This document shows positions 852-16,550 of a DNA stretch of 64,000 nucleotides, in pieces. Position 1 is the first letter of the stretch. Each line of letters begins with the position of its first letter. Location of the stretch: the NCBI GenBank assembly GCA_963714015.1, contig OY970223.1, positions 2,880,001-2,944,000 of the forward strand. Reading direction: 5' to 3'. Source of the stretch: Vulcanimicrobiota bacterium (lineage in GTDB: Bacteria; Vulcanimicrobiota; Vulcanimicrobiia; Vulcanimicrobiales; Vulcanimicrobiaceae). The position numbers and the translations under genes are program-made. The notes under the pieces were generated by a model. That model was given only the letters and a program-made list of their open reading frames with translations, had not been told where the DNA came from and ran no database searches.

Positions 852-1016
852 CCTTACACCCCTAAAAAGCGCTTGACACGTTGTAACCTTATACATACGC
901 CGCTCGGGGACTGCGCAAGAGGGCCAAATGGCTCATTGTGATGCGAGAGCGCCATTGCCGCGGCTTGTAAAAGAAGCAAACCGTATGCATCTTGCGGCCG
1001 AACGGTTGCTTGTATG

Positions 1017-2534: not shown

Positions 2535-2540
2535 CGGCGC

Positions 2541-3102: not shown

Positions 3103-3162
3103 CGGGACGGACCGGCAGCGATGTCCGTCGGATCCTATCGGTGGTGAGGGTACACCGCTGGC

Positions 3163-3606
3163 ATGAGAAGACAGACTACCATTGGTTTGGCAATCATGGC
3201 CGGAGCCGTCGCCGCCGACGCGCTGATCAGAAGAGACGAGTCGGTGGTGGGGCGGCTCGTCAGATCGCGGCGGGAGCAAACAACGCCAGAGCCGATGATG
3301 CAAGACGCCGACGGCGTCGCTTCGCTTCGCGATGCGAAAGAAGCCGAATCCGAACTGCACGAGGGATGCCGCCAGGAAGTGCTCGCGGCGGCGCGGACGC
3401 TGCACGAGGAAGGGCGCGTGGACTTCTCGCCCGTCGAGGTGATCGAATCCATGCAGGCGCGTGGGACCAGGTACGCCGAGAGCACGATACGCACGCACGT
3501 CGTCTCGCGGATGTGCGCGGACGCGCCCGACAACCATGGAACGACCTACGACGATTTCGAGCGCGTCGAACGCGGGCACTACCGGTTGCGGGGCCACTCG
3601 CAGTAG
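3163..3606 (+). CDS. N-terminal membrane anchor plus small winged-helix-like domain
   Basis: Hydrophobic N-terminus; C-terminal CRQEVLAAA...RYAESTIRTHVVSRMCADAPDNHGTTYDDFERVERGHYRL typical of a conserved small wHTH family. Confidence 0.7.
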   Translation: MRRQTTIGLAIMAGAVAADALIRRDESVVGRLVRSRREQTTPEPMMQDADGVASLRDAKEAESELHEGCRQEVLAAARTLHEEGRVDFSPVEVIESMQARGTRYAESTIRTHVVSRMCADAPDNHGTTYDDFERVERGHYRLRGHSQ

Positions 3607-3622
3607 CGCAAAGACTCGCGCG

Positions 3623-3805
3623 ATGAAGAATCCGATGGAGCGCCCCGCTCAATGGCGCGAAAAGGCCGGGCCGTGTCCGAAGTGCGGATGGGCGGAAACC
3701 GTAGCGCGCAAGTCCAGGACCACCGGAGAGTTGTATTTCGGTTGCGCGCGCCCGAAGAACGGGCCGCGCGGCGGCTGCAATTTCAAGGGCTGTCGCAGTC
3801 ATTGA
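3623..3805 (+). CDS. Stand-alone topoisomerase-type C4 zinc-ribbon protein
   Basis: CPKCG...RKSRTTGELYFGC...C pattern; ATG at 3623 within ORF 3461..3805. Confidence 0.65.
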   Translation: MKNPMERPAQWREKAGPCPKCGWAETVARKSRTTGELYFGCARPKNGPRGGCNFKGCRSH

Positions 3806-3873
3806 AGTCATCCTGACGCGCGGCGCTGAGGTTTCCGCGCGTGATCGTGTTGGATGGCGGGGCCTCTACGTAG

Positions 3874-4113
3874 TACGGAGGCGGCGGAGGAGGCGGCGGC
3901 GGTTGCGATATTATAGGAAAAATAGCATGTCCCACGAGGTTCAGCTGCGTATGGGCCATCCTAGAAGGCGTTCTCGCCGGGACACTATTGGCTGCCGCCG
4001 TCATGGCCGCTATTACAAATCCCATTTTTGGATGGATCGAGGTAACAGCCTTAGTTGGTGGCCACGTCGCTTTGCTCGATTCGATCTCGAACGCCTTTCA
4101 GGAATGCGCGTAG
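3874..4113 (+). pseudogene. Start-less Gly-linker plus hydrophobic Cys-bracketed (bacteriocin/toxin-tip-like) fragment
   Basis: Frame after TAG 3871-3873 reads YGGGGGGGGGCDIIGKIACPTRFSCVWAILEGVLAGTLLAAAVMAAITNPIFGWIEVTALVGGHVALLDSISNAFQECA*. Confidence 0.5.
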
Positions 4114-4128
4114 GATAAGCGGCCCACC

Positions 4129-4350
4129 ATGCTTCCAAAGGTTCTCCCTACTCCTCATTACTGGGCCATCGCAGTGTATTTCATACCTTCTGCAATCATG
4201 GCTCTCGGCGTCTATCTTCGCTGGAAGCGCATTCCGACATTCCCTGTAAATCTACAAGAGCAGGCGAAGAGAGGTACGTTCCGGTTCGCATGGCTCGTCG
4301 GGTTCCTCACGCTGGTCGTGATGGATATGATTAAACTCCCTGCGCGGTAG
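4129..4350 (+). CDS. Small two-TM membrane protein (immunity-like)
   Basis: 73 aa, two hydrophobic helices; starts 15 nt after the toxin-like fragment, followed by a terminator. Confidence 0.6.
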   Translation: MLPKVLPTPHYWAIAVYFIPSAIMALGVYLRWKRIPTFPVNLQEQAKRGTFRFAWLVGFLTLVVMDMIKLPAR

Positions 4351-4371
4351 AACCCCCGAACACTGCACAAC

Positions 4372-4407
4372 AAAGAAGGTCCCGTGCAACCGCGGGACCT
4401 TCTTTTT
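4372..4407 (+). terminator. Intrinsic terminator, probably bidirectional
   Basis: AAAGAAGGTCCCG-TGCAACCG-CGGGACCTTCTTT-TT. Confidence 0.8.
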
Positions 4408-4941
4408 ACGTCCTTTTTGCTCGCCGGTCGATACGTTCTCCGTACAGTCGGCGTCTAACGATTTCTTGAAGCGACAACCACCACTCGTTGTCAAAGGGGA
4501 ATGAGCGGTCCAAGTCGGCGTACTCGACGCCCGTACGCCTTTTCATCCCAAAGCGACGACGTGTCGGCCATAGCAACTAGTATTTTAGCCGACGTTCATC
4601 GCCCCCGATGGTCACGACGCGGACGTTCATGCCGGGGTTTCGTGGACGGTCGCCCTCAAGCACGCCCTCGTCCTCCACGCGTTTCATGACCTTCTTGAGG
4701 ATCTCGCGATGGTGTCCGTCGCACAATGGTGCACAGCCAGCGCATCCCGGAATTGAGGTCAGTATGATCGTGACAGATCGGGCTCCTTGCGCGGTGCGCC
4801 GTCCGGCCGATCCGAGTTCCCATCAGCGCCGCGACGGACAGCGACATGAACTCCACGTGACGCGCGCCTTCGCGCGTGGGGCCGCGTCGACCGAACGCCG
4901 CGTGGGTAACTGCATGCCAGCCTTGCTAGGGAGTGCAAAGA

Positions 4942-5403
4942 ATGAAGACGGTCCATCTCCTCATGGCCACGGCCCTGGTCATCGGCACATGTTGCGGATG
5001 CAGCGGTTCGAACCGAAGTTCGAGCGACACGACGACGAGCGACACGAGCGCCGCCTCCCCATCGCCGGCTGCCGACAGTCCCGACGTGGTTCAAGGCGAG
5101 CTGAAGGAAATGAATTCTTCGGTCGATCTGCTCAACCAAAGCAGCGACGCCGCCGGCGCATTCCAGGACGCTCGCATCGAAAGCGGCCTCCATTCAAACG
5201 ACACCTTCACTCTCGACGTGGACACGGACAAGATCTCCACCGGCCAGGACCAACGCCGTCTAACCTCCGTTATGCTCGAAGCGTGGGTGAAGGCGTACAG
5301 GGACCACCACGGCGGAAGCGCCGCGGTTCCGCTTGCAGTATCCATCGATGATCTGTCCGGTCAGGAAGTGCAGCATGACTCCTATGACCCTAGATCGCAG
5401 TAG
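4942..5403 (+). CDS. Lipoprotein with Ser/Thr-rich linker
   Basis: MKTVHLLMATALVIGTCCG-C lipobox-like signal, S/T/D-rich stalk, compact C-terminal domain. Confidence 0.7.
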   Translation: MKTVHLLMATALVIGTCCGCSGSNRSSSDTTTSDTSAASPSPAADSPDVVQGELKEMNSSVDLLNQSSDAAGAFQDARIESGLHSNDTFTLDVDTDKISTGQDQRRLTSVMLEAWVKAYRDHHGGSAAVPLAVSIDDLSGQEVQHDSYDPRSQ

Positions 5404-6062
5404 TGCTTCGCATGAAGGCGCTTCTCTTAAACTTCTCCGTCGAGCTCAGTTTCATTGCCTGCTCATCATTACAGCCTTGCGGCACGCGCAACGTTGTACA
5501 GACTACGATCGATCACAGCGTGCAGGCGAACAACATGCGCGCCAAATTGAGTGCTACGCACTTCCCCGGCGGCCGGGAGGACATAGAACTCGACGATGGG
5601 CACGTTTACGCGGCCAATTTCTTTACGCGGAAGCCGCTGGAGGCGGCGGACAGATTGGCAGTATGCCCCTGTCACCGGCGATCAAGTCGAGCTGTGCGCG
5701 CTGACTGCGGCGGACGGTTCGAAGTATTGTTTTGCCCGATGCGTTGCGCAAGCCTCACGGCCTTGAGACGTGGACTCGTGCACCAACGGCACGGCGGAAA
5801 TTCTTGCCACCTGTTTGCACCTGGTTCAGCAACCGGAATCGGAGCCGTAGCCAACAGCATCACTCCGTCGAGGTAGACGGCGCGCCAAACGGTGTTCCGA
5901 AGATCTTCGTTGAGAGTCCGGGTGCAGGACTCTTCGGAGCAGTACACCTTTAGCTGCGCGGCTACCGCTTACCGTCCATGCGCGATTGCTTTGGACGAGG
6001 TCATGCTCAACCTGGACCTTCGCGAACAGCATGTGGCCATCCGGGCAACTGGAAGTGTTTCT

Positions 6063-6803
6063 TCATGTTGCAGCGCCTTCGTCGCCACAGACGCCTTCGT
6101 GTCCATCAATCTCCATAGTGGACTGTTCATCGCTGATGAATTTCTTGATAGCGAGGCGGCCAACCATCCGCATCATTAGGACGTCGGCCGTTCCGCCTAT
6201 CACCGCGCCGGCGAAGGGGGCGACCCTACCCAGATTCACGATTCCCCGAGTGCCGGCTTTCGTCACGATTCGCGAACCGCCGATGCGGTTGATGGTCGTC
6301 AAGAGCGCGCGCGGGATCTTCTTAACGCCTTTAACTGCGAGCGACTTCGCAACCCCGACGGCGGCACGCTTCCCGGGTCCGGCAAGGGAGTCGCCCGCGA
6401 CGAGCGCAAGAACGAACGCCTTCACGTCCGGACTCAGCGGATCTTCGCCCGCAAGCACCGCGATGGCCGCCACAGTCGTCGCCTGAAGCACCAGCGCGGC
6501 CGGAACCGATACTGCGATGCTTGCAAGGCCGCCGAGTCCGGTCAAGAAGCCGGCGCTGCCGGCGTAAGTGCATTGCGTTCTAAGCAGTCGGCGCGCACGC
6601 TCATCGAGCGTTCCAGGTTTTGCGCGGTGAAATTCGCCGATCTCGCGTGCACCCGGAAAGCCCGGGAAACCGTCCACAATCAACCCGTACAGGGCGTTTA
6701 CTGGTTCGCCTGCGCGTGAATTCAAGAATTGGAGCAGCAACGGAGCGTTGATCTGAGGATTGTTCGAACCGTCCCGGTATCGCTGCTTTTCTTCTTCCGC
6801 CAT
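6063..6803 (-). CDS. EcsC family protein
   Basis: AGSAGFLTGLGGL, KINR-like TTINRIGGSRIVTKAG, GRVAPFAGAVIGGTAD; start MAEEEK at 6803 inside ORF 6063..7361. Confidence 0.8.
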   Translation of the reverse strand: MAEEEKQRYRDGSNNPQINAPLLLQFLNSRAGEPVNALYGLIVDGFPGFPGAREIGEFHRAKPGTLDERARRLLRTQCTYAGSAGFLTGLGGLASIAVSVPAALVLQATTVAAIAVLAGEDPLSPDVKAFVLALVAGDSLAGPGKRAAVGVAKSLAVKGVKKIPRALLTTINRIGGSRIVTKAGTRGIVNLGRVAPFAGAVIGGTADVLMMRMVGRLAIKKFISDEQSTMEIDGHEGVCGDEGAAT

Positions 6804-6990
6804 GCCGTCTCGGTTTGCCCGTCGGAGTACGATCCTACGCTGCCGGATCTGCCCGCCCGCCGTGCACCGATGGGGTTTCCGGCATGCGGTTACAAGCTCG
6901 TTTGTTTTTCCCGCGGGCTCAGCGCGGGAAAGATGCTCGAAGCGACGCTGCGGCAGAGCAGGCATGGCGCGTTGGAAAGGATGGGGTTGG

Positions 6991-7274
6991 ATGCTTAAGG
7001 TGGGACAGGTGGAGTACGGATTTCTAAAGTTGAAGATTTTTTGGTGAGGATTCGTCATCTCGACGGCGCGGATGTCAGATCCGACCGGACCGGCATGCCG
7101 ACCTGGCCGTACGAGCGCGCGGCGAAGGACGCCTGGAACGTGGCGGACTGGAAGCGCGAGCGCTTCAAGCCCACGTATCCGGGATTCGAGGTTGAAGTCC
7201 TGGACGGGGATGGCAATCCGGTCCAAGGCAACATGAAACTCGAGACCGTCCGTGACTCGTACGCGGAGGATTAG
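6991..7274 (+). CDS. Conserved small hypothetical protein (frameshift ~7020)
   Basis: MLKVGQVEY|ISKVEDFLVRIRHLDGADVRSD...WPYERAAK...FKPTYPGFEVEVLDGDGNPVQGNMKLETVRDSY. Confidence 0.65.
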
Positions 7275-7302
7275 ATCTAGGATCCGCGTTCGAACGGCGT
7301 TG

Positions 7303-7766
7303 ATGTTGTTCGCCGCAGCGATTTGCGTGCCAGTCTGTGTTTCGGCGCAACAAGACGCCACTAGTTATTCGTCGCCAGAGCTGGCGTGTGGGGCCGAGCG
7401 TTTGCACGCGCAGACCGCGCCGTCGACGCGCATGATCTCTACGGCAAAAGCGGAGGCCGTAAAACGCATGCCGTTGCGGAGGTTGATTCGGCGGTGCATG
7501 CGCTACGCCTGGCCGTGGCTCAATGCCTCAATCCTCCCTCCATGGCCCACGTGACCTTCCGCAACTGATTCCTCATAACGTACAACACGGTGTACAAACA
7601 CTTCACGAACCACGCGGACGCGGGAACGACTGGATTCGTGCTGGCGGATCAGATGCTTGCGAAGTGCATCCAGGACTTGCTCGGCACGCCGGAAGGAGCG
7701 GCGTGCCAGATACGCTTGCGCGCCAACGCGCGGATCGCCAAGTTCGTCGATTCGGACGGTACCTGA
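7303..7766 (+). pseudogene. Degenerate secreted protein
   Basis: Signal peptide MLFAAAICVPVCVSA; needs a frameshift (~7385) and read-through of TGA 7566-7568 to reach the stop at 7766. Confidence 0.3.
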
Positions 7767-7769
7767 CGA

Positions 7770-8114
7770 ATGGCGGACCAGGCTCGCGAGGTGGCGTTCA
7801 CGCGCTCGTTCTTTCGCAACCTTGAGCAGATCGAAAAACACATCCGCAGGCGCAGCATCATCCGGCAGATGATCGAGCGCTACGGCAACAACGTCGCGGA
7901 AGCGTGGCGGCATCTCAAACCTAACGAGCCGACGTCTGGATTCATGCAACTGTATGAGAACGGCTTGCTGCATCTCAGCATTGAGGCGTTGATGCTCGAA
8001 AGGCAATGGCAAGACGTGTTCACGCGCGACAATCGGAAAGAGGCGCTAGACGCGCTCGCGTCGTTGGACGCGGAATGGCGCGAGCGCGTTGACGGCGACT
8101 ATTTCTTGAAGTGA
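7770..8114 (+). CDS. Hypothetical protein; helical domain often associated with nuclease/defence genes
   Basis: QMIERYG...PTSGFMQLYENGLLHLSIEALML...WQDVFT motif. Confidence 0.65.
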   Translation: MADQAREVAFTRSFFRNLEQIEKHIRRRSIIRQMIERYGNNVAEAWRHLKPNEPTSGFMQLYENGLLHLSIEALMLERQWQDVFTRDNRKEALDALASLDAEWRERVDGDYFLK

Positions 8115-8336
8115 CGGTCAAAGGCGAAGTGATTGCCGCGGCCCGCCTGCGCGCGAAGACTGGAAGCGTTGCCGTAATAGGATGCCGCGAAGGCGCGGCG
8201 CGGCTGGTCGTCGAGCGGATCGAGGCCGTCTCCAACCGGCTGTCGCCGGCATCGCACAAAAAAGCCGTCGCGGCCGCTAGAATGTGCCAGGCGTATGTCA
8301 TCTCCGTGGGTAACGCTCAAGCCGGAGGTGGCTCAA

Positions 8337-8459
8337 ATGCAACGAGTGCATCCTATCGCGGCCCTCGTGACCGCCGCGTCGATCTTCTTGACCGCGGAGT
8401 GGTTCATCCGCCGCGAGGAATCGCTCCTCGCCAAATTCTTCGGTTCTCTCGGCTACTGA
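8337..8459 (+). CDS. 40-aa single-TM peptide (absent from ORF track)
   Basis: RBS GGAGGTG; MQRVHPIAALVTAASIFLTAEWFIRREESLLAKFFGSLGY*. Confidence 0.55.
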   Translation: MQRVHPIAALVTAASIFLTAEWFIRREESLLAKFFGSLGY

Positions 8460-8469
8460 GGCGGCTCGA

Positions 8470-8628
8470 ATGCAGTCGTTTAAGGTAGCGCACGTGCGCG
8501 AGCAGGGCGTCGATCTCATCATCGTGTTCGTTGACGAACGCGTGAGCAATATGACAGACGCCGACCGCCGCGAGATAGCGGGACGGCTCACGCTCTGCGC
8601 GCGCCATCCGCATAACAGATGTTATTAG
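8470..8628 (+). pseudogene. Truncated conserved hypothetical protein
   Basis: MQSFKVAHVREQGVDLIIVFVD... recognisable N-terminus; breaks after LTLCAR at the dif-like site. Confidence 0.5.
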
Positions 8629-8632
8629 GCGA
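8605..8632. other. dif/Xer-like recombination site candidate
   Basis: CATCCGCATAA-CAGATG-TTATTAGGCGA; 11-6-11 layout, left arm 8/11 to the E. coli XerC arm, right arm only TTAT. Confidence 0.35.
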
Positions 8633-8980
8633 TTGAAGGCGATGGACAAAGAGATCGACATCTTGCTGTAACGTTACGTTTGCTTATATCACATCGCACA
8701 TTTCACGCACGATCTTGAAACGTGGCGCAACGTGGGAAGTTCCATGCCGCAAGGCTACACTATTTCTGCTGCGAAAGCTACGAAGGCACAAAAAGCGATC
8801 TACGACGTACTCGATGCACTTGCCAAGCGCCGCGGCTTCGTGACGGTCGAACGCGTGAGGCATTCGCACACTCCTCGCAGGACGCGGGGCATGAAGTGAA
8901 CGACAAATCTGCAAGGCAAACATCGCGTACGAAAAGCCGCAGATCGCAGGCGGATCCGCAGGCGCGCGCAGCGCTTTCTC

Positions 8981-9724
8981 TTGACGCATCTCGAGAGCGG
9001 CAACGCGTTCACGAAGGAAGAGTTTCGTACCGCTAGCGGATGGCCAGCCCAGACCTTCAAGACATACTGGTCGAAGCGGTTCGCTCAGATCATTCGACGG
9101 GGAGGCGTCGGGAAATACAGAGTGGACGGCACGTTCGAGCGATTTCGTGGCTTAGGCGCGTTCCGTCGCTACATGAGTCAGGCGACGGGAGATCGAGGGG
9201 TCTATGCTTTGACGAAGTTTCCCACGGTCGTTACATACGAATTCTATTTGCCACTGGCGCATGAAACTACGCTAAGACGTACTCTGGATGCTTTGTTCTA
9301 CGAGGACAGCGTTATGCCGCGATTAAAGCGCATGGATATCAGAGAACTCGAAGAGCACTTGCCTTCCGAGATGCTGCTGGGAGAAGCGCCAGTACTTGAA
9401 CGCGCAAGGGAATTTGTTAATCGCAACTTCAGCGGATACTCGATTTACCACGTCAGCGGGCGGTTTCGTGCCGACGACATCAACTCTCAAGCGGCGGCCA
9501 CCTCGTCATCCGCGAACGGTGAGCCGTATCTAATTGATGAAACTACAGCCGTGGTGCAATTCATCTTTCCTTGCTTGAGCCAAGCCGAAGCCGCTAGGAC
9601 GCGATTGCTGTTTCACAGCCTCTTCGTTCAACCGATCATAGACTTGATAAGTGGCGAGGATCAGATCTGGATGATTGAAACTGGGACGGGCAGCAGTGCT
9701 CACGTGTGGAAGAACCAGGGGTAG
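8981..9724 (+). CDS. Hypothetical protein with wHTH-like N-terminus (true start probably GTG 8896 plus frameshift)
   Basis: 247-aa ORF; FTKEEFRTASGW...TFKTYWSK N-terminus, GYSIYHVSGRF and YLIDET motifs. Confidence 0.7.
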   Translation: MTHLESGNAFTKEEFRTASGWPAQTFKTYWSKRFAQIIRRGGVGKYRVDGTFERFRGLGAFRRYMSQATGDRGVYALTKFPTVVTYEFYLPLAHETTLRRTLDALFYEDSVMPRLKRMDIRELEEHLPSEMLLGEAPVLERAREFVNRNFSGYSIYHVSGRFRADDINSQAAATSSSANGEPYLIDETTAVVQFIFPCLSQAEAARTRLLFHSLFVQPIIDLISGEDQIWMIETGTGSSAHVWKNQG

Positions 9725-9729
9725 CAACT

Positions 9730-9738
9730 TGGTATAAT
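9730..9738 (+). promoter_or_regulatory. Extended -10 promoter
   Basis: TG-G-TATAAT just after the 9724 stop. Confidence 0.45.
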
Positions 9739-10132
9739 TGCTTGCATAAGCATGAGATCCGACTAAGCCGCCAAGGCGGCCGACATGATCAAGAACTTGC
9801 GCGTTTCCAATCCCATGTAGGCGACTCGAAAATAAGCCAGATCAATTTTGTGGACCCTTGCTCGCAAATGGTTCTTCAATCCAGATCGATTTTCGCGAAT
9901 GCGGATTGACACTCCCGGGCGAGCATTTGTTTCCACGTCTGAGAGCCAGACGCGTGTCAATCGACCAAAGAATCGCAGGAGTAAAAAGGCACAAAGCGAG
10001 CGGTTGGCGGCTATATATCAAGCGAGTAGGCGTTGGATGTCTTGCTTGCAACGGGATCACCAATATTGGGGATGTCCGGGTCGTAGTTCCCGCGATAGGT
10101 TCGCAGAGCAGCGCCCGTTTCAAAGGGAGGGA

Positions 10133-10303
10133 ATGCTGATGGACGCCTATCTGCAGTCGAGGTCGTGGACGCTGGGCGATACGCGTCCTGCCACGGATCC
10201 TAGACAATGGGCTCGCTATTCTTCGCTTCGTCGCGCACAGCGCCGTCGAACACCCCGTGTGCTCAACGCCAAAAAGGACGGTGAGGCGGTGCATACCGAG
10301 TGA
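10133..10303 (+). CDS. Small basic hypothetical protein
   Basis: RBS GGAGG, MLMDAYLQSRSW...; stop overlaps the next GTG (10300). Confidence 0.4.
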   Translation: MLMDAYLQSRSWTLGDTRPATDPRQWARYSSLRRAQRRRTPRVLNAKKDGEAVHTE

Positions 10304-10489
10304 AAAAAGACGAACCCCGAAGGCGCAGCCTACGGGATTCGAAAACGCCCGACGGGGAGCAGGTCCTGCAAGATGAGCTCCGCCGTTCAGCACGGTCATT
10401 AAAGCACATCCGGATGCGCCGTTCAAGTGGCGCTGCGGCGTCTGCTTCCCGTCGGGCTTTCTCCACTTCAGCTTCGGAGGAAAGCCCGC

Positions 10490-10681
10490 ATGAAAAGCAC
10501 CCTACCGATTTCGAAACGCCGTTCGCGCGGCCAGCGCGATTCCCGTCGCAAAGATGCCGCCGAATGCGAGATCGTTCTGCGGCGCGAGAACGCCCCGGCG
10601 TTGACGGACGGCCACGATCTTGAGCCGTTACTACTGTTGCGCTTGTTGCAAGAGGCCGACGAGGGAAACGGCGATGCCTAA
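10490..10681 (+). CDS. Small Arg-rich hypothetical protein
   Basis: RBS GGAGG, MKSTLPISKRRSRGQRDSRRKD...; stop overlaps the start of the next gene. Confidence 0.45.
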   Translation: MKSTLPISKRRSRGQRDSRRKDAAECEIVLRRENAPALTDGHDLEPLLLLRLLQEADEGNGDA

Positions 10682-11123
10682 ACGACCCAGCTTCCTGACG
10701 GCGCGCCGAGTGGCGATTGCCCAGATAGCCGTGCCCACGGCAAAAGGCCTGATGTTCTCAGAGACCGCGGTCGAGATTTGTCCCAAGAACCCGCTTACCG
10801 ATTATCGCCGTTCTCTCGGCTTCGAGATCACCGATGCCGCAAAAGTCACCGGGCTGCCGGCGAATCTTTTCCTAGCCATTGAAGCCGCAACGGTCGACAT
10901 GTCGGCCCGCGAAGTGCTTGTGCTTCGCGGGCTGTACGAGCAAATCGCCGAGCACGCGAACTCGCCCTCTCAGAAACAACGCGAATGCGACGACCGCAAC
11001 GTGAAAAGTTGGGATGACGACCTCTCGCGTGAGATCGATGGTGTCGTCGAGAGCGGAACGCCGATAGCTCTTGCATACATCGACCTATTGGGGAGATCGT
11101 TGCCTGACGGTGACAAGTGTTGA
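10674..11123 (+). CDS. XRE-type HTH domain protein
   Basis: NPLTDYRRSLGFEITDAAKVTGLPANLFLAIEA helix-turn-helix pattern. Confidence 0.6.
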   Translation: MPKRPSFLTARRVAIAQIAVPTAKGLMFSETAVEICPKNPLTDYRRSLGFEITDAAKVTGLPANLFLAIEAATVDMSAREVLVLRGLYEQIAEHANSPSQKQRECDDRNVKSWDDDLSREIDGVVESGTPIALAYIDLLGRSLPDGDKC

Positions 11124-11260
11124 GCACTCGAAAATTTACGACGCGCCGGTCGTACTGGCCGTATACGACTCGCTTTGCACTTTTAAGAAACGAAGATTCG
11201 CACGACCCCTTGCACGAGAGATACGTCTGAAACAGACAGCACTTCTGATTTTTCGCAAGA

Positions 11261-11404
11261 GATCTTTGAAAACTGAATAACGATTTTAACTTGCGGCTCT
11301 CCGCCAAGCGGAGACGTGACGGAGAGCCGATGTGCGGTGCGCGTTCTTTTATCTTCAAAAGCCGTGATGGCTCTCCATCCTTCGACGACATGGGCGGAGA
11401 GCCG
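11261..11404 (+). ncRNA. Candidate structured RNA unit 1 (boxA-like plus twin GGCTCTCC/GGAGAGCC hairpins)
   Basis: GATCTTTGAAAACTGAATA 11261-11279; stems 11294-11303/11320-11329 and 11369-11376/11396-11403; lies between convergent genes. Confidence 0.45.
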
Positions 11405-11437
11405 GATATCGAAATCTGTCACCGGTTAGCGCCAGAA

Positions 11438-12082
11438 TTACCATGCGATCCGCCCGGGCCACGGCTTGCCGCTGAGCCGTTCGATTGCGTTACGTGTGCC
11501 TCGATATCGATCACCGTCATAGGCGGCTTTCCGAACCGTCTCGACAATGGACAGCACGACGGCGTTCTCGCGCGCAGTTCGCGCCGGCATGGCGATGTAT
11601 TCGTAGCCGGCGACGACGTCCGGAGGCACGTCGGCGAGCAGGATGAGGTCGCGAATGATCCGCTCGAAGCGAAAGCCGGCATGATTCTTTAGAACGATCG
11701 AAACGTGCCCGGCGGTCGAGTGCACGATTCGAACTTGGGTTTCGAAGTTTTCGAGGTTGCCCAACGTGCGCAGACACATGGCCAGCGTCCGCACCGTGAA
11801 GCGGCCGACGCGAGCGTCGCCGATTTTGCGGTCCATCGTTCGGCAAACTTCGGAGATCGCGGTCGAGGCGGCTTTCTCTGCGGCTTCGAAATTAAATTGG
11901 TGCGGGCGAAGATCGAGGTCTCCGGCTGGCGCTTCGAACCTCAGATGCATGGTTTGTCGCACTTCGTCGAGCGGGAATCGTCGACAGTGTACTTGGATTT
12001 TGCCTCCTGCGATGGTGCAGACCATCTCCTTGTCGAGAAATTGCGCTCGTCCTGCTTCCGGAAAGTACGTTGACTTCATCAT
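11438..12082 (-). CDS. Hypothetical protein
   Basis: RBS AGGAG then ATGATG (MMKSTYFPE...), 214 aa, within ORF 11438..12370. Confidence 0.65.
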   Translation of the reverse strand: MMKSTYFPEAGRAQFLDKEMVCTIAGGKIQVHCRRFPLDEVRQTMHLRFEAPAGDLDLRPHQFNFEAAEKAASTAISEVCRTMDRKIGDARVGRFTVRTLAMCLRTLGNLENFETQVRIVHSTAGHVSIVLKNHAGFRFERIIRDLILLADVPPDVVAGYEYIAMPARTARENAVVLSIVETVRKAAYDGDRYRGTRNAIERLSGKPWPGRIAW

Positions 12083-12126
12083 TTTTCTCCTGCGGTTGAC
12101 GCAGTCCAAGACCGCGGAGAAAAACG

Positions 12127-13032
12127 TCATCGAAAGTCGGAGTACCGCCAGTCCTTTATGAAGCGCACCTCGTCGGAAAGCATTCTTTCGGGGTTTTCGA
12201 CAACATAGCTGCGCATCCACAAATCGGCTAGACACAAGAGCGACGTCTCGAGCACTTCGATTTGAGTGTCTTGACAGCCGGCGACCGCCATGGCGGCGAT
12301 CGCGAGTCGCCCGGGCACGTTGTCCGCAAGGAGTTTCAAGCGCGTCACCGTCAGTGTCGGCTCGACCCACCTCCTGAAAGCCTTTTCGAAAACCCTGCGA
12401 TGTCGGTGGAGGTACATCAGATCGATTTTCGCGGTTTCCCGTCTCAAGACGGACTGGATACCGTCGAGAAACGCGTCGCGCCGGCTTCTGGCGACCTCGT
12501 GGACCTCAAAGACGTAGCGCGCAAGCGACTGCGAACTGTCGAAGTCGCTGCCGCGATTCATGGCAAAGCCGATGGCGACGTTGTCGTTGTGGTCCAAAAC
12601 CGTGCTTCCACTAAGCGCGCTCGCCGCGCTTAATCCAAGCCAGAGATCGTAAACGTCGTCGCGCAACTGCTTGGACCGTGGTACGGCCAACGCGGTCGCC
12701 AGCGTGCCGACGACGTCGATATAATGACCGCAGGTCCAGAGCATCCATAGACCGCTGCACCAGGCGATTCCCGATGATTTCAAAGCTTCGCCCAGAGCCC
12801 AAGAGCGTCGCGCGTCCGGAGCATGCACGCCTCGTCTCCAATCGTCGAAACTTTTGCCTGCGGTAGTAGAGGATTTCGGATCCCATTTTTCGATGGCGCG
12901 CTCCAGCGCCCTTACTACGCGACCGCGATAGGGACGCACGTCAAGACGGTTTTTCCGACCTTCGGCCTTGACCAACATTTTCAGTATGCGCGAAAGGCGC
13001 TGTTCTACGGCATTCTTCAGAGTGCGCGGCAT
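12127..13032 (-). CDS. Hypothetical protein with XRE-like HTH segment (putative regulator)
   Basis: 301-aa ORF; KSFDDWRRGVHAPDARRSWALGEAL resembles the W.xG..xP end of XRE HTHs; divergent from the transposase. Confidence 0.6.
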   Translation of the reverse strand: MPRTLKNAVEQRLSRILKMLVKAEGRKNRLDVRPYRGRVVRALERAIEKWDPKSSTTAGKSFDDWRRGVHAPDARRSWALGEALKSSGIAWCSGLWMLWTCGHYIDVVGTLATALAVPRSKQLRDDVYDLWLGLSAASALSGSTVLDHNDNVAIGFAMNRGSDFDSSQSLARYVFEVHEVARSRRDAFLDGIQSVLRRETAKIDLMYLHRHRRVFEKAFRRWVEPTLTVTRLKLLADNVPGRLAIAAMAVAGCQDTQIEVLETSLLCLADLWMRSYVVENPERMLSDEVRFIKDWRYSDFR

Positions 13033-13161
13033 GTCCAGATCATCGTTCCAGATCAGCCGGCACGACCTTTTTTAAAATCGCCGGGCTGCGTTCGGGCAAC
13101 GCAGGGAAGTACAATTGCGCCACGTTGGGCCGCTCGATACTGAGTGCCCCGCGAAAAACCG

Positions 13162-13535
13162 GCTCCTTGAAAACCGAAAATTTGAAATGTCGGCCGCAGG
13201 CTGGCGCATGCACGATCTCGTTGTTTACGTCGAGGACGCGCATGTCGCTCCGTTATGCGGCGTCAATGAGCGGCGTCCGAGTCGGCATAGCCGGAATTTC
13301 AACGTCGCAGTCACTCGAGCCCGGAAGGCGGGCGAATCGCGAACGGTGAGGGCCTCACCGTTCGCGAGAACGATGAGGCCCCTACACAAGTCCCCGGTGG
13401 CATCTCCAGTTTTCGACGCTGAGAGCCGTCGGGCACCCGACCAGTATGCGCTTTCCGCTACCGCCCTCGCAAGGGGGCACGCGGGCGCGGTCGGACCCGA
13501 CCGGGGACGCACCGCAACAGGAGATTGTTGTGCGT
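13162..13535 (+). ncRNA. Candidate structured leader/ncRNA unit 2 upstream of the transposase
   Basis: boxA-like GCTCCTTGAAAACCGAA, 31-nt palindrome 13337-13367, GCGA- and GCAA-capped stems, closing stem GTCCCCGG/CCGGGGAC 13390-13508. Confidence 0.55.
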
Positions 13536-13649
13536 AAAACTCCAGAAAACGGGCGCTTCTATCGAGCGCCAATTCGGCATGCGTCGATTTGGACGCGCGT
13601 TATGCGCGAGAACGGCTGCGTCCGCCCGGGAGGCAGGATCCCATGCTGA
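13530..13649 (+). CDS. Putative 39-aa leader peptide coupled to the transposase
   Basis: AGGAG 13519-13523, GTG 13530, stop overlaps the transposase ATG (ATGCTGA). Confidence 0.4.
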   Translation: MRKTPENGRFYRAPIRHASIWTRVMRENGCVRPGGRIPC

Positions 13650-15410
13650 GCCCGGGGCACGGCACACCTGCGAAGCCTAGCGAGGTCTTCCCGTACAAGC
13701 CGCCGCGCTTCATCCGCGAGGATTCCAAGCGCGCCCGGCTAGAGGCGGACGCCCTGGCCGCCATGGCGGATGCGGGCATGGGCCGCAAAGATGTCCGCTA
13801 CGTGCACGCCCTGGAGGACGAGCCCGTCGATCAGGCCCAGCTCGATGACGAGGTCAAGGGATCGCCCGACGGTACGATTTTCTGGGTGCGGTCCAGCTCG
13901 TGCCGGCAGTGCAGCGGCAAGAAGCCGCGCCGCCGCCGGGACAAGAAAACCGGGAAGCTCATCGAGCCCAAGAGCAAGCCGCACGCTCCGGGCAAATGCC
14001 GCAAGCGGGAGCGAGAGCGCGTCACCCGCATGGGCGAAGACGTCTTCACGTGCTCGCACAAAGGCTGGAAGAACGCCCAGCAGTGCGTGCACATCCGCAA
14101 GGCCAAGAAGAAACTGGGCATCCTCTCCGGTCCGTACTCGACGGCGCGCCGCCGCAAGCCGACGATCTGGATCTTCTCCTCCGGCTTTAAGGAGGCGACG
14201 CGCCGAAGCAACGCCTACAAAGAGATGCCCAGACGCGTTCCGCAACTCGCCTACGAATTCTGCCGGCGCTTCGTCACGCCGCCGCGGAGTGCCGGGCGTA
14301 CCGGAATTCCGTTGGCCGCAGTGTGCTTCGCGCTGCTGATGAAGGTGTTCATAAACCGCGATTATGACGGCATGGTGCACACGCTCGCGCACGACGAGAC
14401 CGTCAGCAAGTTCTGGCGATTGCTCGCGCCAAATTTCGCGGACGAGTTGCCGGAAACAGGCACGTTTTCGAAGCGCTTCGGCAACGAAAATCTGACGCCG
14501 TACATGTACGACATCATCCCTGCGCAGGGCAAAATGGGCCGCAAGATCGATTACATGAACCTGATCGATTCGGACCAGCATCCCAAGATACCGACCATGA
14601 ATTCGTGCACGCTCAAGTTCGGCGGTCCGCCGCCGGCGTGGCGGAAGGTGGCGGAGATGGTGAAGCGCCACTTCGGGATCGGCAACGTGAGCAACCTGAT
14701 CGTCGCGCTGGACGTGACGCTCGACACCGGCATCGGCTCGAGCGACGGCTGCCATCTGCCCAGCATGGCGCGCCAAATGTTGGAAGCGCAGGGACGGCCG
14801 TTTCCCTCGGCCGCGGATCAGGCGTACTCGGGCAAACGCAACTTCCGCGAGTTGCAAAAGATGGGATTCGAAGCGCTCTACATTCCCGAGAAGGCGAACG
14901 AGCAGCGCCTGACGGCGCGCAACGAGTGGTGCGAACTGGCGAAGAAAATGGCGGCGTTCGAAAAGGACCGCGAGCACGAGTACAAGTCAAACCAACGCAA
15001 TCGCAGCAAGGCCGAGAACTACCCGTCAAGATCGAAGCACTACTATCCGATGGGACGGCTGCGCGCGCGAAAGGGCGATCCGAAGCCGGATTACCCGAAG
15101 GATCTGAAACTCACGGACGACGGGAAACTGGACGAGCAGTCTGTCTCTGCTCCCAGAGGACGTCATCGAACGCATCATCAAGGCCGCGGAAGTCGCAGTC
15201 GGCGTCGCCCCTTTGAACGAAACGCTCGCGGTCGCCATCGTTGACAACCTGCGCTCGCTGGTGATGCTGGAGCACCTCTTCGACGTGCGCGTGGACTTCG
15301 ACGATCCGGAGTGGGCGTTCGAGGGGATCACGACGGTTTTCGAAGAGGAGATCCGCATCCAGGTGTCAGGACCGAGGCCGCGGCCGTCGGACGGAATGGA
15401 CCCGGCGTAG
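13643..15410 (+). mobile_element. SWIM-zinc-finger DDE transposase (IS4/IS5-like DDE_Tnp_1 fold), frameshift ~15145
   Basis: SWIM-like FTCSHKGWKNAQQCVHI; catalytic LIDSD, AADQAYS, RNRSKAENYPSRSK; C-terminal NETLAVAIVDNLRSL in ORF 15213..15410. Confidence 0.8.
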
Positions 15411-15715
15411 CCGGCGCTGGCGCGTCGCGCCGTGCCACTCGGCCGGACAGGTGCGCGTGCCAAAGCGTTCGCCGATCACGGCCTGCAACGGCACCATGAG
15501 ATCCATGGATGACGGACCGGAGTTCCGCGATGAACTCCGGCCCGCGCGTCCCCGCAGAAAGTCGGATTCATCGATCTCGATGAAGCACTCCCGCTCGTTC
15601 TCGCGGATTCGGCACCCCAATCGTTGCGCGGTCCGCGGCCCGTCACCGAATACCAGCGCGGGCGGTTTTCGGCGGGAAAGCGCAAACGCCGTGCGGTTCA
15701 CGAGACCTTCGCTCG

Positions 15716-15958
15716 TCAGCGGTTCCACTCGCCGTCGGTCTCTTCGAACCGGTCGCGTTCCGGAGCCATCCGGCCGTTGGGGTAGCCGCAAGCGATGCTG
15801 CCGAAGTAGAGGTATCCGTTGCGCCAAACCTTCGGAAGGTCGTCAAGCCGGTCCGCGACCGGCGTCTCGTCGTCGCCCGGCTTTTCCGAAAGCAGCGCTT
15901 CGAGCGCCGCGTCCAGGCCAGCAATGTGCTTCTCGGTGTTGCAGTCGATGATGTGCAT
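15716..15958 (-). CDS. Small acidic hypothetical protein
   Basis: RBS GGGAG, MHIIDCNTEKH..., 80 aa. Confidence 0.5.
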   Translation of the reverse strand: MHIIDCNTEKHIAGLDAALEALLSEKPGDDETPVADRLDDLPKVWRNGYLYFGSIACGYPNGRMAPERDRFEETDGEWNR

Positions 15959-16022
15959 TTGCGTCTCCCGTGATCGACGGAATAGTAGCATCGATCTTCG
16001 TCTGATGAAAGTCGCGCCGAAG

Positions 16023-16056
16023 GAAAAGAGCCCGACCTCATCGCCGGACTCTTTTC
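16023..16056 (-). terminator. Intrinsic terminator-like hairpin
   Basis: Minus strand GAAAAGAGTCCG-N10-CGGGCTCTTTTC; pairs better (G-U) on the minus strand. Confidence 0.5.
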
Positions 16057-16071
16057 GTGTTCCTCGCGCGC

Positions 16072-16197
16072 GCGAATGCTGGAAATCCGTTATTCGTTAT
16101 GCGAATTCTGGAAATGGGCGCGAATTCCGCAAATCCGATTTTGCGTAGGGGCCAATTCTGGAAACGCCTTGCAAAATTGGATTTACGGTGTACGACA
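16072..16197. repeat. Repeat-rich putative element end
   Basis: Four imperfect copies of GCGAATTCTGGAAAT (16072, 16101, 16120, 16151); inverted pair 16131-16144/16171-16184; ends ...TACGACA. Confidence 0.55.
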
Positions 16198-16199
16198 CG

Positions 16200-16550
16200 C
16201 TACATCTGCATTTGGGAGATTTCGTTGTACGCGCTGAGCAGCTTGTTGCGGATAGCCAAGGTGAACTGCATTGCAAGGTTCGCCTCTTCGACCGACGTCA
16301 CGACCTTGCTCACGTCGTTCGTCTTGCCCGTGGCTAGATCTTGGGAAAGCTGATTGGACTGCGTGACCTTGTCATTGACGTCGCCCAAAAACGACTGCAC
16401 CGTATCTTTGAAAGACGGCGTTCCGGAGACGCCGGCCGCGCCCGCCGAAGAATTGCCGCTCGAATCGCTGCTGCCCACGCCGACGTCCGGAACGAACGTT
16501 CCGGGAATGGCCTTGCTCATGGCGGCGTTGTAGCCTGCGTTGATTTCCAT
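16200..16550 (-). CDS. fliE: Flagellar hook-basal body protein FliE
   Basis: SFKDTVQSFLGDVN...ANLAMQFTLAIRNKLLSAYNEISQMQM. Confidence 0.95.
   Translation of the reverse strand: MEINAGYNAAMSKAIPGTFVPDVGVGSSDSSGNSSAGAAGVSGTPSFKDTVQSFLGDVNDKVTQSNQLSQDLATGKTNDVSKVVTSVEEANLAMQFTLAIRNKLLSAYNEISQMQM

What the first reader, a model, noticed from the sequence alone, without database searches (positions are those of the whole stretch)
13033..15410. Best candidate system: divergent SWIM-DDE transposase behind a ~480-nt structured RNA leader
Seen: 610 nt without a credible long ORF lie between the divergent HTH-like gene and the transposase, packed with stems (13204-13249, 13319-13333, 13337-13381, 13390-13508, 13507-13535), two capped by GNRA loops on the + strand and preceded by a boxA-like motif. 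The protein keeps D-D-E (LIDSD / ADQAY / RSKAE) and a SWIM-like finger, and adds a basic CxxC...H...C insert (CRQCSGKKPRRRRDKK...H...CRKRERER) plus a ~50-aa insert before the NE..L helix. Known: ordinary IS4/IS5-type elements have short leaders and terminal IRs close to the gene; none is evident here. Inference: an RNA-regulated, possibly RNA-associated, transposase module in which the Arg-rich zinc insert could bind the RNA.
Basis: partly seen in the sequence, partly recalled or inferred. Interest (0 to 1): 0.8.

Follow-up and report, generated by a model that had tools for sequence, protein, structure and literature searches.

The report
Broken SWIM-DDE transposase, hairpin-rich upstream tract
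This is a single, probably disabled copy of a rare jumping-gene enzyme at the edge of a 49-kb strain-specific island in an Eremiobacterota genome, and the unusually hairpin-rich DNA in front of it is real but unique to this copy, so it looks like a local control region rather than an RNA partner of the enzyme.

Summary
The gene (13643-15410, +) is a divergent Tn5-fold DDE transposase with an N-terminal SWIM-like finger. The D309/D392/E458 triad is invariant in 23 homologues, and the model matches Tn5 transposase at Z 13.8. Its conserved C-terminal domain lies in the +1 frame after about 15140, so this copy is frameshifted. It is single-copy and sits 0.8 kb from the right edge of a 49-kb insertion that two same-genus genomes lack.

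The 610-nt upstream tract (13033-13642) has no ORF with a coding signature. Its 200-nt fold z-scores reach -5.5, against a minimum of -3.97 in 160 random genome windows.

The tract is not conserved. No Rfam family matches it, and no alignable counterpart was found in 348 family genomes or beside any homologue. Both strands fold about equally well.

Relatives have 0.8-1.4 kb there instead. It holds a small SWIM-only protein gene in 5 of 8 loci and a conserved 125-nt element in 4 of 8. The window has neither. The CxxC of the basic insert is not conserved, and the boxA-like match is at chance level.

Best reading: a lineage-specific control region (palindromic operators and/or 5'-UTR hairpins) between an XRE-like regulator and a decaying transposase. 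An RNA-associated transposase is not supported.

The parts
12127..13032 (-). Divergent 301-aa ORF, a possible XRE-like regulator
   Evidence: Coding signature GC1/2/3 0.59/0.46/0.69. No Pfam, NCBIfam or PHROGs hit. 30% identical over 193 aa (E about 5e-11) to the ORF divergently upstream of the G146 transposase. That ORF has a sub-threshold HTH_3 match (E 0.0028, 18.1 bits against a cut-off of 23). The Atlas gives only unnamed clusters.
13033..13642 (.). 610-nt non-coding, hairpin-rich tract between the divergent genes
   Evidence: No ORF with a coding signature. z -4.56 (+) and -3.66 (-). Local z down to -5.47 against a background minimum of -3.97 in 160 windows. Unique in its own genome. Only 25-51-nt matches in 348 family genomes. 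No Rfam hit.
13204..13249 (+). Hairpin 1
   Evidence: -20.0 kcal/mol, z -2.59.
13319..13333 (+). Short 5-bp hairpin with a 5-nt loop
   Evidence: -8.9 kcal/mol, z -2.13. The loop is GAAGG, not GNRA.
13337..13381 (.). Three copies of an 11-nt half-site, GAACGGTGAGG, at 13341(+), 13353(-) and 13368(+). They form two mutually exclusive hairpins or overlapping palindromes.
   Evidence: Perfect 15-bp inverted repeat at 13337-13367. An alternative 13-bp stem at 13350-13381 has a GCGA loop. z -4.70. The half-site is absent from relatives' upstream regions.
13390..13508 (+). 119-nt branched stem closed by GUCCCCGG/CCGGGGAC, with an inner GCAA-capped hairpin
   Evidence: -66.9 kcal/mol, z -3.97, 1 of 200 shuffles as good.
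13507..13535 (+). Hairpin containing an AGGAG. It is followed by a GTG-initiated 39-codon frame (13530-13649) whose stop overlaps the transposase ATG.
   Evidence: z -2.29. The uORF has no coding signature (0.57/0.62/0.62) and no Pfam hit. It is speculative.
13628..13633 (+). Shine-Dalgarno-like GGGAGG, 9 nt before the ATG
   Evidence: Read from the sequence. The local hairpin around it is not better than shuffles (z -0.03).
13643..15139 (+). SWIM-like finger plus Tn5-fold DDE transposase, frame 1 (residues 1 to about 499)
   Evidence: D309/D392/E458 invariant in 23 homologues. VIA-align to Tn5 1muh_A: Z 13.8, rmsd 4.2, 235 residues aligned. Foldseek top hit Tn5, E 8.6e-3. NCBIfam IS5 NF033579 E 5e-5, 22.9 bits against a cut-off of 140. 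9 of 23 relatives hit PF01609 and 4 of 23 hit PF04434.
15139..15141 (+). Approximate site of a +1 frame break, not in a homopolymer
   Evidence: Frame 1 reads ...KLDEQSVSAPRG.... Frame 2 reads ...LSLLPEDVIERIIKAAEVAVG..., which matches the family consensus D.xLS.LPEDVI..A...VG.ARLNE.
15141..15410 (+). Conserved C-terminal helical domain of the transposase, in the +1 frame
   Evidence: The family profile matches window 15114-15359 at E 8.2e-22. The coding signature is still strong at 0.70/0.37/0.84.
15716..15991 (-). Convergent small ORF (91 aa or more) between the transposase and the island edge
   Evidence: Coding signature 0.65/0.43/0.78. No Pfam hit.
16021..16165 (.). Terminator-like hairpin (16021-16055), then four 15-nt direct repeats GCGAATKCTGGAAAT (16072-16165)
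   Evidence: A similar hairpin with two repeats lies 45.6 kb away at genome positions 2850500-2850628, in the same orientation. These are therefore not inverted terminal repeats.
16198..16199 (.). Right junction of the 49-kb strain-specific insertion, directly after the fliE stop
   Evidence: G210 joins the sequences homologous to G000 2847205 and 2896199 with 35 nt between them. G206 has 624 nt there.

Best explanation
The locus is one decaying copy of a rare mobile-element module of Eremiobacterota. It consists of a divergently transcribed XRE-like regulator gene, a 610-nt control region, and a SWIM-finger, Tn5-fold DDE transposase of the IS4/IS5 (DDE_Tnp_1) superfamily whose C-terminal domain is now out of frame. 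The module lies 0.8 kb inside the right edge of a 49-kb island that was inserted immediately after the fliE stop codon.

The hairpin-rich tract is most likely the module's own cis-acting control region. It would hold palindromic operator sites for the neighbouring regulator, namely the three GAACGGTGAGG half-sites and the GTCGGnnCCCGAC-type palindromes. It would also hold stable stem-loops in the 5' leader that keep transposase expression low or block read-through. This is the usual strategy of insertion sequences.

Shown here: the protein's fold and catalytic triad, the frame break, single-copy status, the island context, non-coding status, the excess of stable stems, and the lack of conservation. 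Inferred: that the palindromes are operators or leader hairpins, and that they regulate the transposase.
For: Transposase identity. The triad is invariant in 23 of 23 aligned homologues. The model matches Tn5 at Z 13.8, well above the next unrelated row at 8.3. 9 of 23 relatives hit DDE_Tnp_1 and 4 of 23 hit SWIM. 9 of 23 hit NCBIfam IS5. In the Atlas, 16 of 30 top clusters carry DDE_Tnp_1 plus SWIM.

Decay. There is a +1 frame break before the conserved C-terminal domain. The homologues in G146, G093 and contig L056 are also split.

Mobile context. The gene is single-copy in its own genome and absent from both same-genus genomes. The 49-kb insertion is bounded at 2847206 and 2896198.

Control-region reading. 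A regulator-type ORF stands divergently upstream in relatives too: MarR at 28.1 bits in G083, and a sub-threshold HTH_3 in G146, whose ORF is the window ORF's homologue. A perfect 31-nt palindrome and a third half-site lie midway between the two start codons. Both strands fold about equally well, as expected of DNA palindromes. The tract is lineage-specific, as operators for a diverged regulator would be.
Against: No binding or transcription data exist. No sigma-70-like promoter was found in 12800-15900, though promoters of this phylum are unknown. WIN_div itself has no HTH hit. Two GNRA tetraloops on the + strand only hint at RNA-level rather than DNA-level function. The branched 119-nt stem is more elaborate than an operator needs. 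The frame break could be an assembly error in a single-contig MAG, in which case 'decaying' is wrong. The surviving strong coding signature of the +1 segment shows that the break is either recent or artefactual.
Confidence: 0.5

Rival explanations
1. The tract is a cis-acting structured 5'-UTR RNA, a leader or attenuator. The two mutually exclusive hairpins (13337-13367 against 13350-13381) act as a switch. The downstream stems control elongation, stability or translation of the transposase mRNA.
For: The two hairpins share the arm CCUCACCGUUCGCGA. Two GNRA loops occur on the + strand only. The z-scores exceed all 160 background windows. An AGGAG and GTG uORF has its stop overlapping the transposase ATG. 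Four relatives carry a different conserved 125-nt upstream element in which 91.7% of cells pair, so leader elements may be a trait of the family.
Against: No homologous leader exists to test covariation. No Rfam family matches. The minus strand folds nearly as well. No U-run follows either hairpin, and the RBS hairpin is not better than chance (z -0.03). The uORF has no coding signature. In the relatives' element only 3 of 30 pairs change on both sides, and 48 of 500 shuffles reach that.
Confidence: 0.22
2. The tract is functionless debris left when the small SWIM-protein gene and the conserved 125-nt element of the ancestral module were deleted or overwritten. The stems are accidents of local duplication and inversion.
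For: Relatives have 0.8-1.4 kb here with a small SWIM ORF (5 of 8 loci) and the conserved element (4 of 8). The window has neither, anywhere in its genome. The transposase itself is broken. Other island genes appear split, namely two adjacent SBP_bac_5 ORFs and two adjacent AbiTii ORFs.
Against: A perfect 15-bp inverted repeat with a third matching half-site, and fold z-scores beyond every one of 160 background windows, are not expected of drifting sequence unless it is very young.
Confidence: 0.2
3. The tract encodes an RNA that associates with the transposase through its Arg-rich zinc insert and guides or regulates it, by analogy with the bridge RNAs of IS110 or the omega RNAs of IS200/IS605.
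For: The tract is a long structured non-coding region immediately 5' of the gene. A basic insert lies upstream of the SWIM finger in the closest clade.
Against: The enzyme is a Tn5-fold DDE transposase, a class that recognises DNA ends through protein. From my own knowledge, no RNA partner is known for it. The CxxC of the insert is not conserved. Insert-bearing relatives have unrelated upstream DNA with a protein gene there. No Rfam hit was found. The gene is frameshifted.
Confidence: 0.04

Closest known systems
IS5-family / IS4-family (Pfam DDE_Tnp_1, Tn5/IS50-fold) transposases
   Same: RNase-H-like catalytic core with a D-D-E triad, and R454-x3-E458-x6-K465, which resembles the YREK signature. 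The N-terminal helical DNA-binding region and the core superpose on Tn5 transposase (Z 13.8 over model residues 193-472). Relatives hit PF01609 (9 of 23) and NCBIfam IS5 models (9 of 23).
   Different: The window protein itself reaches no Pfam hit and scores only 22.9 bits against the 140-bit cut-off of NF033579. It has an extra N-terminal region with a SWIM-like finger and a conserved roughly 90-aa C-terminal helical domain. No terminal inverted repeats or target duplication were found. There are one or two copies per genome, not many. The control region is long and there is a divergent regulator.
SWIM + DDE_Tnp_1 'transposase family proteins' (automatically named clusters in the ESM Atlas), and the cargo-carrying IS903-like SWIM-DDE transposons noted earlier in this scan
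   Same: The same two-domain architecture. Association with defence-type cargo: the island holds TIR, AbiTii and HNH genes, and relatives sit beside Dcm- and Vsr-like genes by my reading of ORF sequences.
   Different: Those clusters are 409-451 aa, while this subfamily is 520-600 aa with added termini. The earlier notes report 16-bp TIRs and 9-11-bp duplications. None was found here or in 7 relatives' loci. The earlier notes are unchecked AI notes, and one of them partly fell on later checking.
Mu-type early region (divergent repressor, operator region, transposase operon)
   Same: A regulator gene transcribed away from the transposase, with a palindrome-bearing control region between them, near one end of a large inserted element. 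This resemblance is recalled, not tested.
   Different: The transposase is not MuA/rve-type. Its direction is outward, towards the island end. No phage structural gene was detected by Pfam in the island ORFs tested: 32 and 14 of the 18, the other four being fliE, flgC, flgB and an ABC transporter outside the island.
RNA-guided or RNA-associated transposon systems (IS110 bridge RNA; IS200/IS605 TnpB/IscB omega RNA)
   Same: Only the superficial layout: a structured non-coding tract adjacent to a transposase gene.
   Different: The enzyme class differs: a DDE Tn5-fold here, against DEDD/RuvC-like recombinases or TnpB. No Rfam match was found. The tract is not conserved among relatives.

Membership tests
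DDE_Tnp_1 superfamily (IS4/IS5-type, Tn5 fold) | Conserved D-D-E catalytic triad on an RNase-H-like fold | tested here: met
   D309, D392 and E458 are invariant in 23 of 23 homologues. AF2 model pLDDT is 90-97 over residues 350-440. VIA-align to Tn5 1muh_A: Z 13.8, rmsd 4.2, 235 aligned.
DDE_Tnp_1 superfamily (IS4/IS5-type, Tn5 fold) | Match to Pfam PF01609 at its threshold | tested here: not met
   The window protein has 0 Pfam families at E<=0.1. 9 of 23 homologues match at E<=0.01, best 8.8e-11. Membership therefore rests on relatives and on fold.
DDE_Tnp_1 superfamily (IS4/IS5-type, Tn5 fold) | Y-x2-R-x3-E-x6-K signature around the catalytic E (signature recalled from the IS4/IS5 literature) | tested here: inconclusive
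   R454 and E458 are invariant in 23 of 23. K465 is invariant in the 3- and 4-sequence alignments but not in all 23. The Y position is Q, F or S.
IS5 family as curated by NCBIfam (NF033579 and siblings) | Score above the curated cut-off | tested here: not met
   22.9 bits against a cut-off of 140. Among 23 relatives the best E-value is 4.3e-12.
Insertion sequence or transposon (an intact mobile unit) | Terminal inverted repeats flanked by a target-site duplication | tested here: not met
   I scanned left ends across the whole island against right ends at 15300-16400. Nothing was better than 12 of 16 TIR matches with a repeat of 6 bp or less, which is chance level. The same scan in 7 relatives' loci gave no pair with a TSD of 8 bp or more.
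Insertion sequence or transposon (an intact mobile unit) | Intact transposase reading frame | tested here: not met
   The conserved C-terminal domain is in the +1 frame from about 15141. An assembly error cannot be excluded.
SWIM zinc finger (PF04434) | CxCxnCxH motif and a Pfam match | tested here: inconclusive
   The window has C137-S-H139...C148-V-H150, with the second Cys replaced by His. There is no Pfam hit. 4 of 23 relatives hit PF04434, best 2.8e-4. C137 and C148 are conserved in 90% or more of sequences. The model shows strands followed by a helix at residues 124-157.
Any described structured RNA family (Rfam 15) | Covariance-model match in 13033-13642 | tested here: not met
   cmscan of 12000-16500 at E<=1 gave two chance-level hits, both at 16021-16188 and none in the tract.
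Conserved upstream element of the nearest relatives (model R1, built here) | Match to the 125-nt element found upstream of the small SWIM gene in G083, G177, G146 and L056 | tested here: not met
   Relatives score 106-130 bits. The best hit in the window tract is 7.5 bits on the minus strand with filters off.
RNA-guided transposon systems (IS110 bridge RNA, IS200/605 omega RNA) | Cognate recombinase or nuclease class, and a conserved adjacent ncRNA | tested here: not met
   The enzyme is a Tn5-fold DDE. The adjacent tract is not conserved among homologues. RNA binding itself is not testable with these tools.

The most novel reading that the evidence does not exclude
In this lineage the hairpin-rich leader is a functional RNA, either a cis-acting switch or a small RNA. 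It has replaced the small SWIM-only accessory protein and the conserved 125-nt element that the nearest relatives carry upstream of the transposase. An RNA would then be substituting for a protein cofactor or regulator of a Tn5-fold transposase, within a previously undescribed long-form SWIM-DDE transposon family of Eremiobacterota.
Probability: 0.07. Interest if true: 0.7.

Novelty: new member of a known kind. Interest (0 to 1): 0.28.

Why it matters
As it stands the finding matters little. It is one probably dead copy of a distant IS4/IS5-superfamily transposase with a lineage-specific control region.

Two side results are more useful. First, the long-form SWIM-DDE subfamily is rare. It has 59 representative clusters among 1.84 billion. 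In our sample of the phylum it was found only in one family of Eremiobacterota, usually as a single copy. In relatives it travels with a small SWIM-only protein gene and a conserved 125-nt upstream element, and neither is described in the papers I could search. Second, the locus marks a 49-kb island rich in defence-type genes, inserted exactly after fliE, which is a possible integration hot spot.

If the leader proved to be a functional RNA, it would be the first such element tied to a Tn5-fold transposase. The evidence here does not favour that.

Tried and rejected
1. Rfam cmscan of 12000-16500 at E<=1 found nothing in the tract.

2. blastn and tblastx of the tract against the upstream regions of 7 homologous loci found no shared sequence with the window. 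BLAST against 348 family genomes gave only 25-51-nt matches. The recurring ones fall on GC-rich palindromic pieces that are unique in the window's own genome.

3. I tested whether the tract is a frameshifted or hidden protein gene. Three-frame translations, an HMM of the relatives' small SWIM protein and GC-by-codon-position all came back negative.

4. I tested whether the tract holds the relatives' conserved 125-nt element. The covariance model R1 found no hit.

5. The operator half-site GAACGGTGAGG is absent from relatives' upstream regions.

6. TIR/TSD scans of the island and of 7 relatives' loci gave nothing convincing. A 6-bp CTACAT at both island junctions is noted but unproven.

7. The 15-nt repeats at 16072-16165 were tested as transposon ends. 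A second cluster at genome positions 2850584-2850628 is in direct, not inverted, orientation, so this was rejected.

8. Flank synteny of homologues was tested for domestication at a fixed locus. No synteny was found. Only G083 and G146 share a uvrC-side boundary about 5 kb from their copies.

9. The short-form paralogue was examined as a guide to the ends. Only the gene itself is conserved across three genomes, with no conserved flanks.

10. tblastn of the protein against the phage and plasmid collections gave no match. A PDB sequence search with the protein gave only a 0.76 E-value hit, and the profile search gave none.

11. Public sequencing runs holding 12900-15500: none was listed, so no RNA holder was listed and read laying was not used.

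12. The first metagenome scan, with alignment A4, found no relative. The second, with P0002, found one contig.

13. Literature searches: 'SWIM' + 'DDE transposase' + 'insertion sequence' + 'prokaryot' gave 4 papers, all eukaryotic or unrelated by title and abstract. 'SWIM' + 'DDE_Tnp_1' gave 2 unrelated papers. 'Eremiobacterota' + 'transposase' gave 6 papers, none on this family by title and abstract. I saw the search listings only and read no paper.

14. The sigma-70 promoter scan found 0 sites. It found 4 terminator-like sites against 3.5 expected, which is uninformative.
Full report
WHAT IS THERE

The window lies at positions 2880001-2944000 of a single-contig 3.56-Mb genome. Record titles of its relatives place that genome in the Eremiobacterota.

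An ORF on the minus strand (12127-13032, 301 aa) is followed by 610 nt without a credible gene. The plus-strand gene then starts at ATG 13643, which is preceded by GGGAGG. ORFs inside the gap have flat GC content over the three codon positions, about 0.65/0.6/0.65. Real genes here show a dip at position 2 and a peak at position 3: 0.59/0.45/0.84 for the transposase and 0.65/0.43/0.76 for the ABC transporter.

THE PROTEIN

The 533-aa product has no Pfam hit. It has only a weak NCBIfam IS5 match: NF033579, E 5e-5, 22.9 bits against a cut-off of 140.

The word-indexed search of 5.8 billion clusters found two relatives. The exhaustive search of 1.84 billion representatives found 59 proteins at E<=0.001, self included, and 19 at E<=1e-30.

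In an alignment of 23 full-length homologues, D309, D392 and E458 are invariant. R454 is also invariant.

- 9 of the 23 hit Pfam DDE_Tnp_1 (best 8.8e-11), and 4 of 23 hit SWIM (best 2.8e-4).
- 9 of 23 hit NCBIfam IS5 (best 4.3e-12).
- An AlphaFold model has mean pLDDT 73.4, and above 90 over the catalytic core. Foldseek's top hit is Tn5 transposase at E 8.6e-3. VIA-align gives Z 13.8, rmsd 4.2 and 235 aligned residues, against 8.3 for the next unrelated entry.
- In the ESM Atlas, 16 of the 30 nearest clusters carry DDE_Tnp_1 plus SWIM.

The architecture is already known from automatic annotation, although this long form (520-600 aa) has extra termini.

The CxxC of the basic insert is absent from the next relatives, and the insert is confined to the closest clade. 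The stretch before the NE..L helix is present in all 23 homologues, so it is a family trait and not an insert.

THE FRAME BREAK

Homologues end with a conserved helical domain (...VGxARLNE...LEHL.D..V.F...). In the window this domain is read in the +1 frame from about 15141 to 15410. The family profile matches it there at E 8.2e-22. The break lies near 15139-15141 and is not in a homopolymer.

The +1 segment keeps a strong coding signature of 0.70/0.37/0.84. The break is therefore either recent or an assembly error. The copies in G146, G093 and the metagenome contig L056 are also split.

CONTEXT

The gene is single-copy in its genome. A distant short-form paralogue lies at 824493-825350.

Both same-genus genomes lack the gene. 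In G210 the sequences homologous to G000 2847205 and 2896199 are 35 nt apart, and in G206 they are 624 nt apart. G000 therefore carries a 48,993-bp insertion, and its right junction is window 16198/16199, directly after the fliE stop. The transposase ends 0.8 kb inside that edge.

Pfam on the island's larger ORFs finds two adjacent SBP_bac_5 ORFs, HNH_5, TIR_2, an ISL3 transposase, two adjacent AbiTii ORFs, DUF4236, an astacin-like peptidase, Peptidase_C70 and EcsC. It finds no integrase and no phage structural protein among the island ORFs tested.

No TIR-plus-TSD pair flanks the gene or the island. The best was 12 of 16 TIR matches with a repeat of 6 bp or less.

DISTRIBUTION

Of 401 genomes sampled across the phylum, 55 have a profile match at E<=1e-10. 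All 55 belong to one family: 54 of 296 other genomes of that family, and 0 of 104 in the 20 other families. Most carry one or two matches (the tally includes the unpublished G237). Most of these matches are the short form.

The long form at E<=1e-40 occurs in 6 of 348 family genomes, the window's own included. The best identity is 42%. There is no match in the phage or plasmid collections.

Two carry GNRA loops on the plus strand: GCGA at 13364-13367 and GCAA inside 13390-13508.

The whole tract scores z -4.56 (+) and -3.66 (-). The 200-nt window 13350-13549 scores -5.47 (+) and -4.73 (-). In 160 random 200-nt windows of the same genome the mean was -0.19, the sd 1.32 and the minimum -3.97.

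The core is a perfect 15-bp inverted repeat at 13337-13367. Its 3' arm can also pair with 13368-13381. Put another way, there are three copies of GAACGGTGAGG at 13341(+), 13353(-) and 13368(+).

The boxA-like match at 13162-13173 has 3 mismatches and is at chance level: 28 found against 27.6 expected.

THE UPSTREAM TRACT: THE INTERPRETATION DOES NOT HOLD

Rfam has nothing in the tract. The tract is unique in its own genome. It has no alignable counterpart upstream of any homologue or in 348 family genomes, where only 25-51-nt matches were found (the tally includes the unpublished G420).

A long gap before the transposase is nevertheless a family trait. In 7 of 7 genome loci examined, 974-1399 nt separate a preceding ORF from the transposase, although in L039 the upstream boundary is uncertain. 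In contig L056 the gap is 825 nt.

In relatives that gap is not empty.

- Five of 8 loci (L035, L036, L037, L041, L056) encode a small SWIM-only protein of about 85-95 aa with CxC...CxH. L038 gives only a weak HMM hit, and L039 and L040 give none.
- Three loci share a conserved non-coding element that includes the 16-mer GTCGGCAACCGCGTCT.
- A covariance model of that element (R1) found a fourth copy, not used in training, at L056:3973-4098. It scores 106 bits and again lies just upstream of the small SWIM gene.
- Covariation in the four copies is weak. 91.7% of cells pair, but only 3 of 30 pairs change on both sides, and 48 of 500 shuffles reach that.

The window has none of these. R1's best hit in the tract is 7.5 bits on the minus strand with filters off. 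The small-SWIM HMM finds nothing in the six-frame translation of the whole genome at E<0.06.

WHAT THE TRACT MOST LIKELY IS

The divergent ORF is homologous to the ORF in the same position in G146 (30% over 193 aa). That ORF has a sub-threshold HTH_3 match. The corresponding ORF in G083 is MarR-type at 28.1 bits. The window ORF itself has no family hit.

A regulator gene reading away from a transposase, with perfect palindromes midway between them, is the usual layout of a repressor-operator control region. Equal foldability of both strands fits DNA palindromes. Lineage-specific sequence fits operators that co-diverge with their regulator.

Stable leader hairpins that damp transposase expression are also standard for insertion sequences. 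This last point is established knowledge, not tested here.

My odds are as follows.
- About 0.5 that this is such a cis-acting control region.
- About 0.22 that it acts chiefly as a structured 5'-UTR RNA. The plus-strand GNRA loops and the two alternative hairpins are the best arguments for this.
- About 0.2 that it is debris left by loss of the small SWIM gene.
- About 0.04 for an RNA partner of the enzyme.

EARLIER NOTES OF THIS SCAN

These notes describe SWIM-DDE 'IS903-like' cargo transposons with 16-bp TIRs and 9-11-bp duplications in other genomes. They prompted my TIR/TSD scans, which were negative here. The notes are unchecked, and one of them partly fell on later checking.

LIMITS

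- No transcript data could be had (see Tried and rejected).
- The closest relative is only 42% identical, so covariation in the window's own tract cannot be tested.
- The frame break may be an assembly artefact.
- The ends of the mobile unit are undefined.
- No paper was read. Three searches gave only unrelated titles.

Noticed in passing
window 1-16198, continuing upstream of the window to genome position 2847206: A 48,993-bp strain-specific insertion lies between a PMT_2 glycosyltransferase gene and the fliE stop codon. Both same-genus genomes lack it. It carries TIR_2, AbiTii, HNH_5, an ISL3 transposase, peptidases and many ORFs without family hits. CTACAT occurs at both junctions and may be a target duplication. 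In G206 the same site holds a different 624-nt insert, so this may be an integration hot spot.
   Followed up: partly
window 16021-16165, and genome positions 2850500-2850628 (L054:5500-5628): Two similar modules lie 45.6 kb apart in the same orientation. Each is a terminator-like hairpin (AAAAGAGCCCG...CGGGCTCTT) followed by direct repeats of a 15-nt motif, GCGAATTCTGGAAAT: 4 copies at the first site and 2 at the second. On the minus strand each module sits between a gene's stop codon and the hairpin. Function unknown. At 2 mismatches or fewer the genome has 20 matches, 7 of them in the island.
   Followed up: partly
L035:9355-9480(-), L036:6765-6888(+), L037:6748-6874(+), L056:3973-4098(+): A conserved 125-nt non-coding element lies immediately upstream of a small SWIM-only protein gene (85-95 aa). 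That gene precedes the long-form SWIM-DDE transposase in three genomes and one metagenome contig. 91.7% of cells pair in the predicted structure, but covariation is weak. It could be a promoter or operator, a transposon end or a leader RNA.
   Followed up: partly
window 43586-43667 (+): The covariance model R1 gave a 25.2-bit hit here (rough E 2.9e-4), far from any transposase homologue. It is probably a chance match in GC-rich coding sequence.
   Followed up: no
genome positions 824493-825350 (L004), and L070, L072, L073: A short-form paralogue (about 406-420 aa in other genomes, a 325-aa ORF here) accounts for most of the profile matches listed across this bacterial family. It occurs mostly as one copy per genome. 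Across three genomes only the gene itself (about 1.45 kb, 66-69% DNA identity) is conserved, with no conserved flanks. It may be a domesticated or very old element.
   Followed up: partly
L054:2549-5514 and L055:8133-9618: Two adjacent SBP_bac_5 ORFs and two adjacent AbiTii ORFs look like single genes split by frameshifts. Together with the broken transposase, this suggests either decay of the island or indel errors in the assembly. The genome is one contig but only 89.6% 'complete'.
   Followed up: no
L040 1702-9596 (G244): A candidate 7.9-kb element surrounds a more distant family member. It has 15 of 16 matching inverted termini (CGCCGGATCGGCCG..) and a 4-bp GGAA direct repeat. It is unverified, and both termini lie inside predicted ORFs.
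   Followed up: no
L035 and L037 (G083, G146): These two genomes of one genus carry their long-form transposases about 5 kb from the same conserved uvrC-side boundary. The DNA between is unrelated in the two genomes. L037 and L041 (different genera) share 3.7 kb of upstream cargo at 70% identity, next to an ORF that looks Vsr-like by eye.
   Followed up: partly
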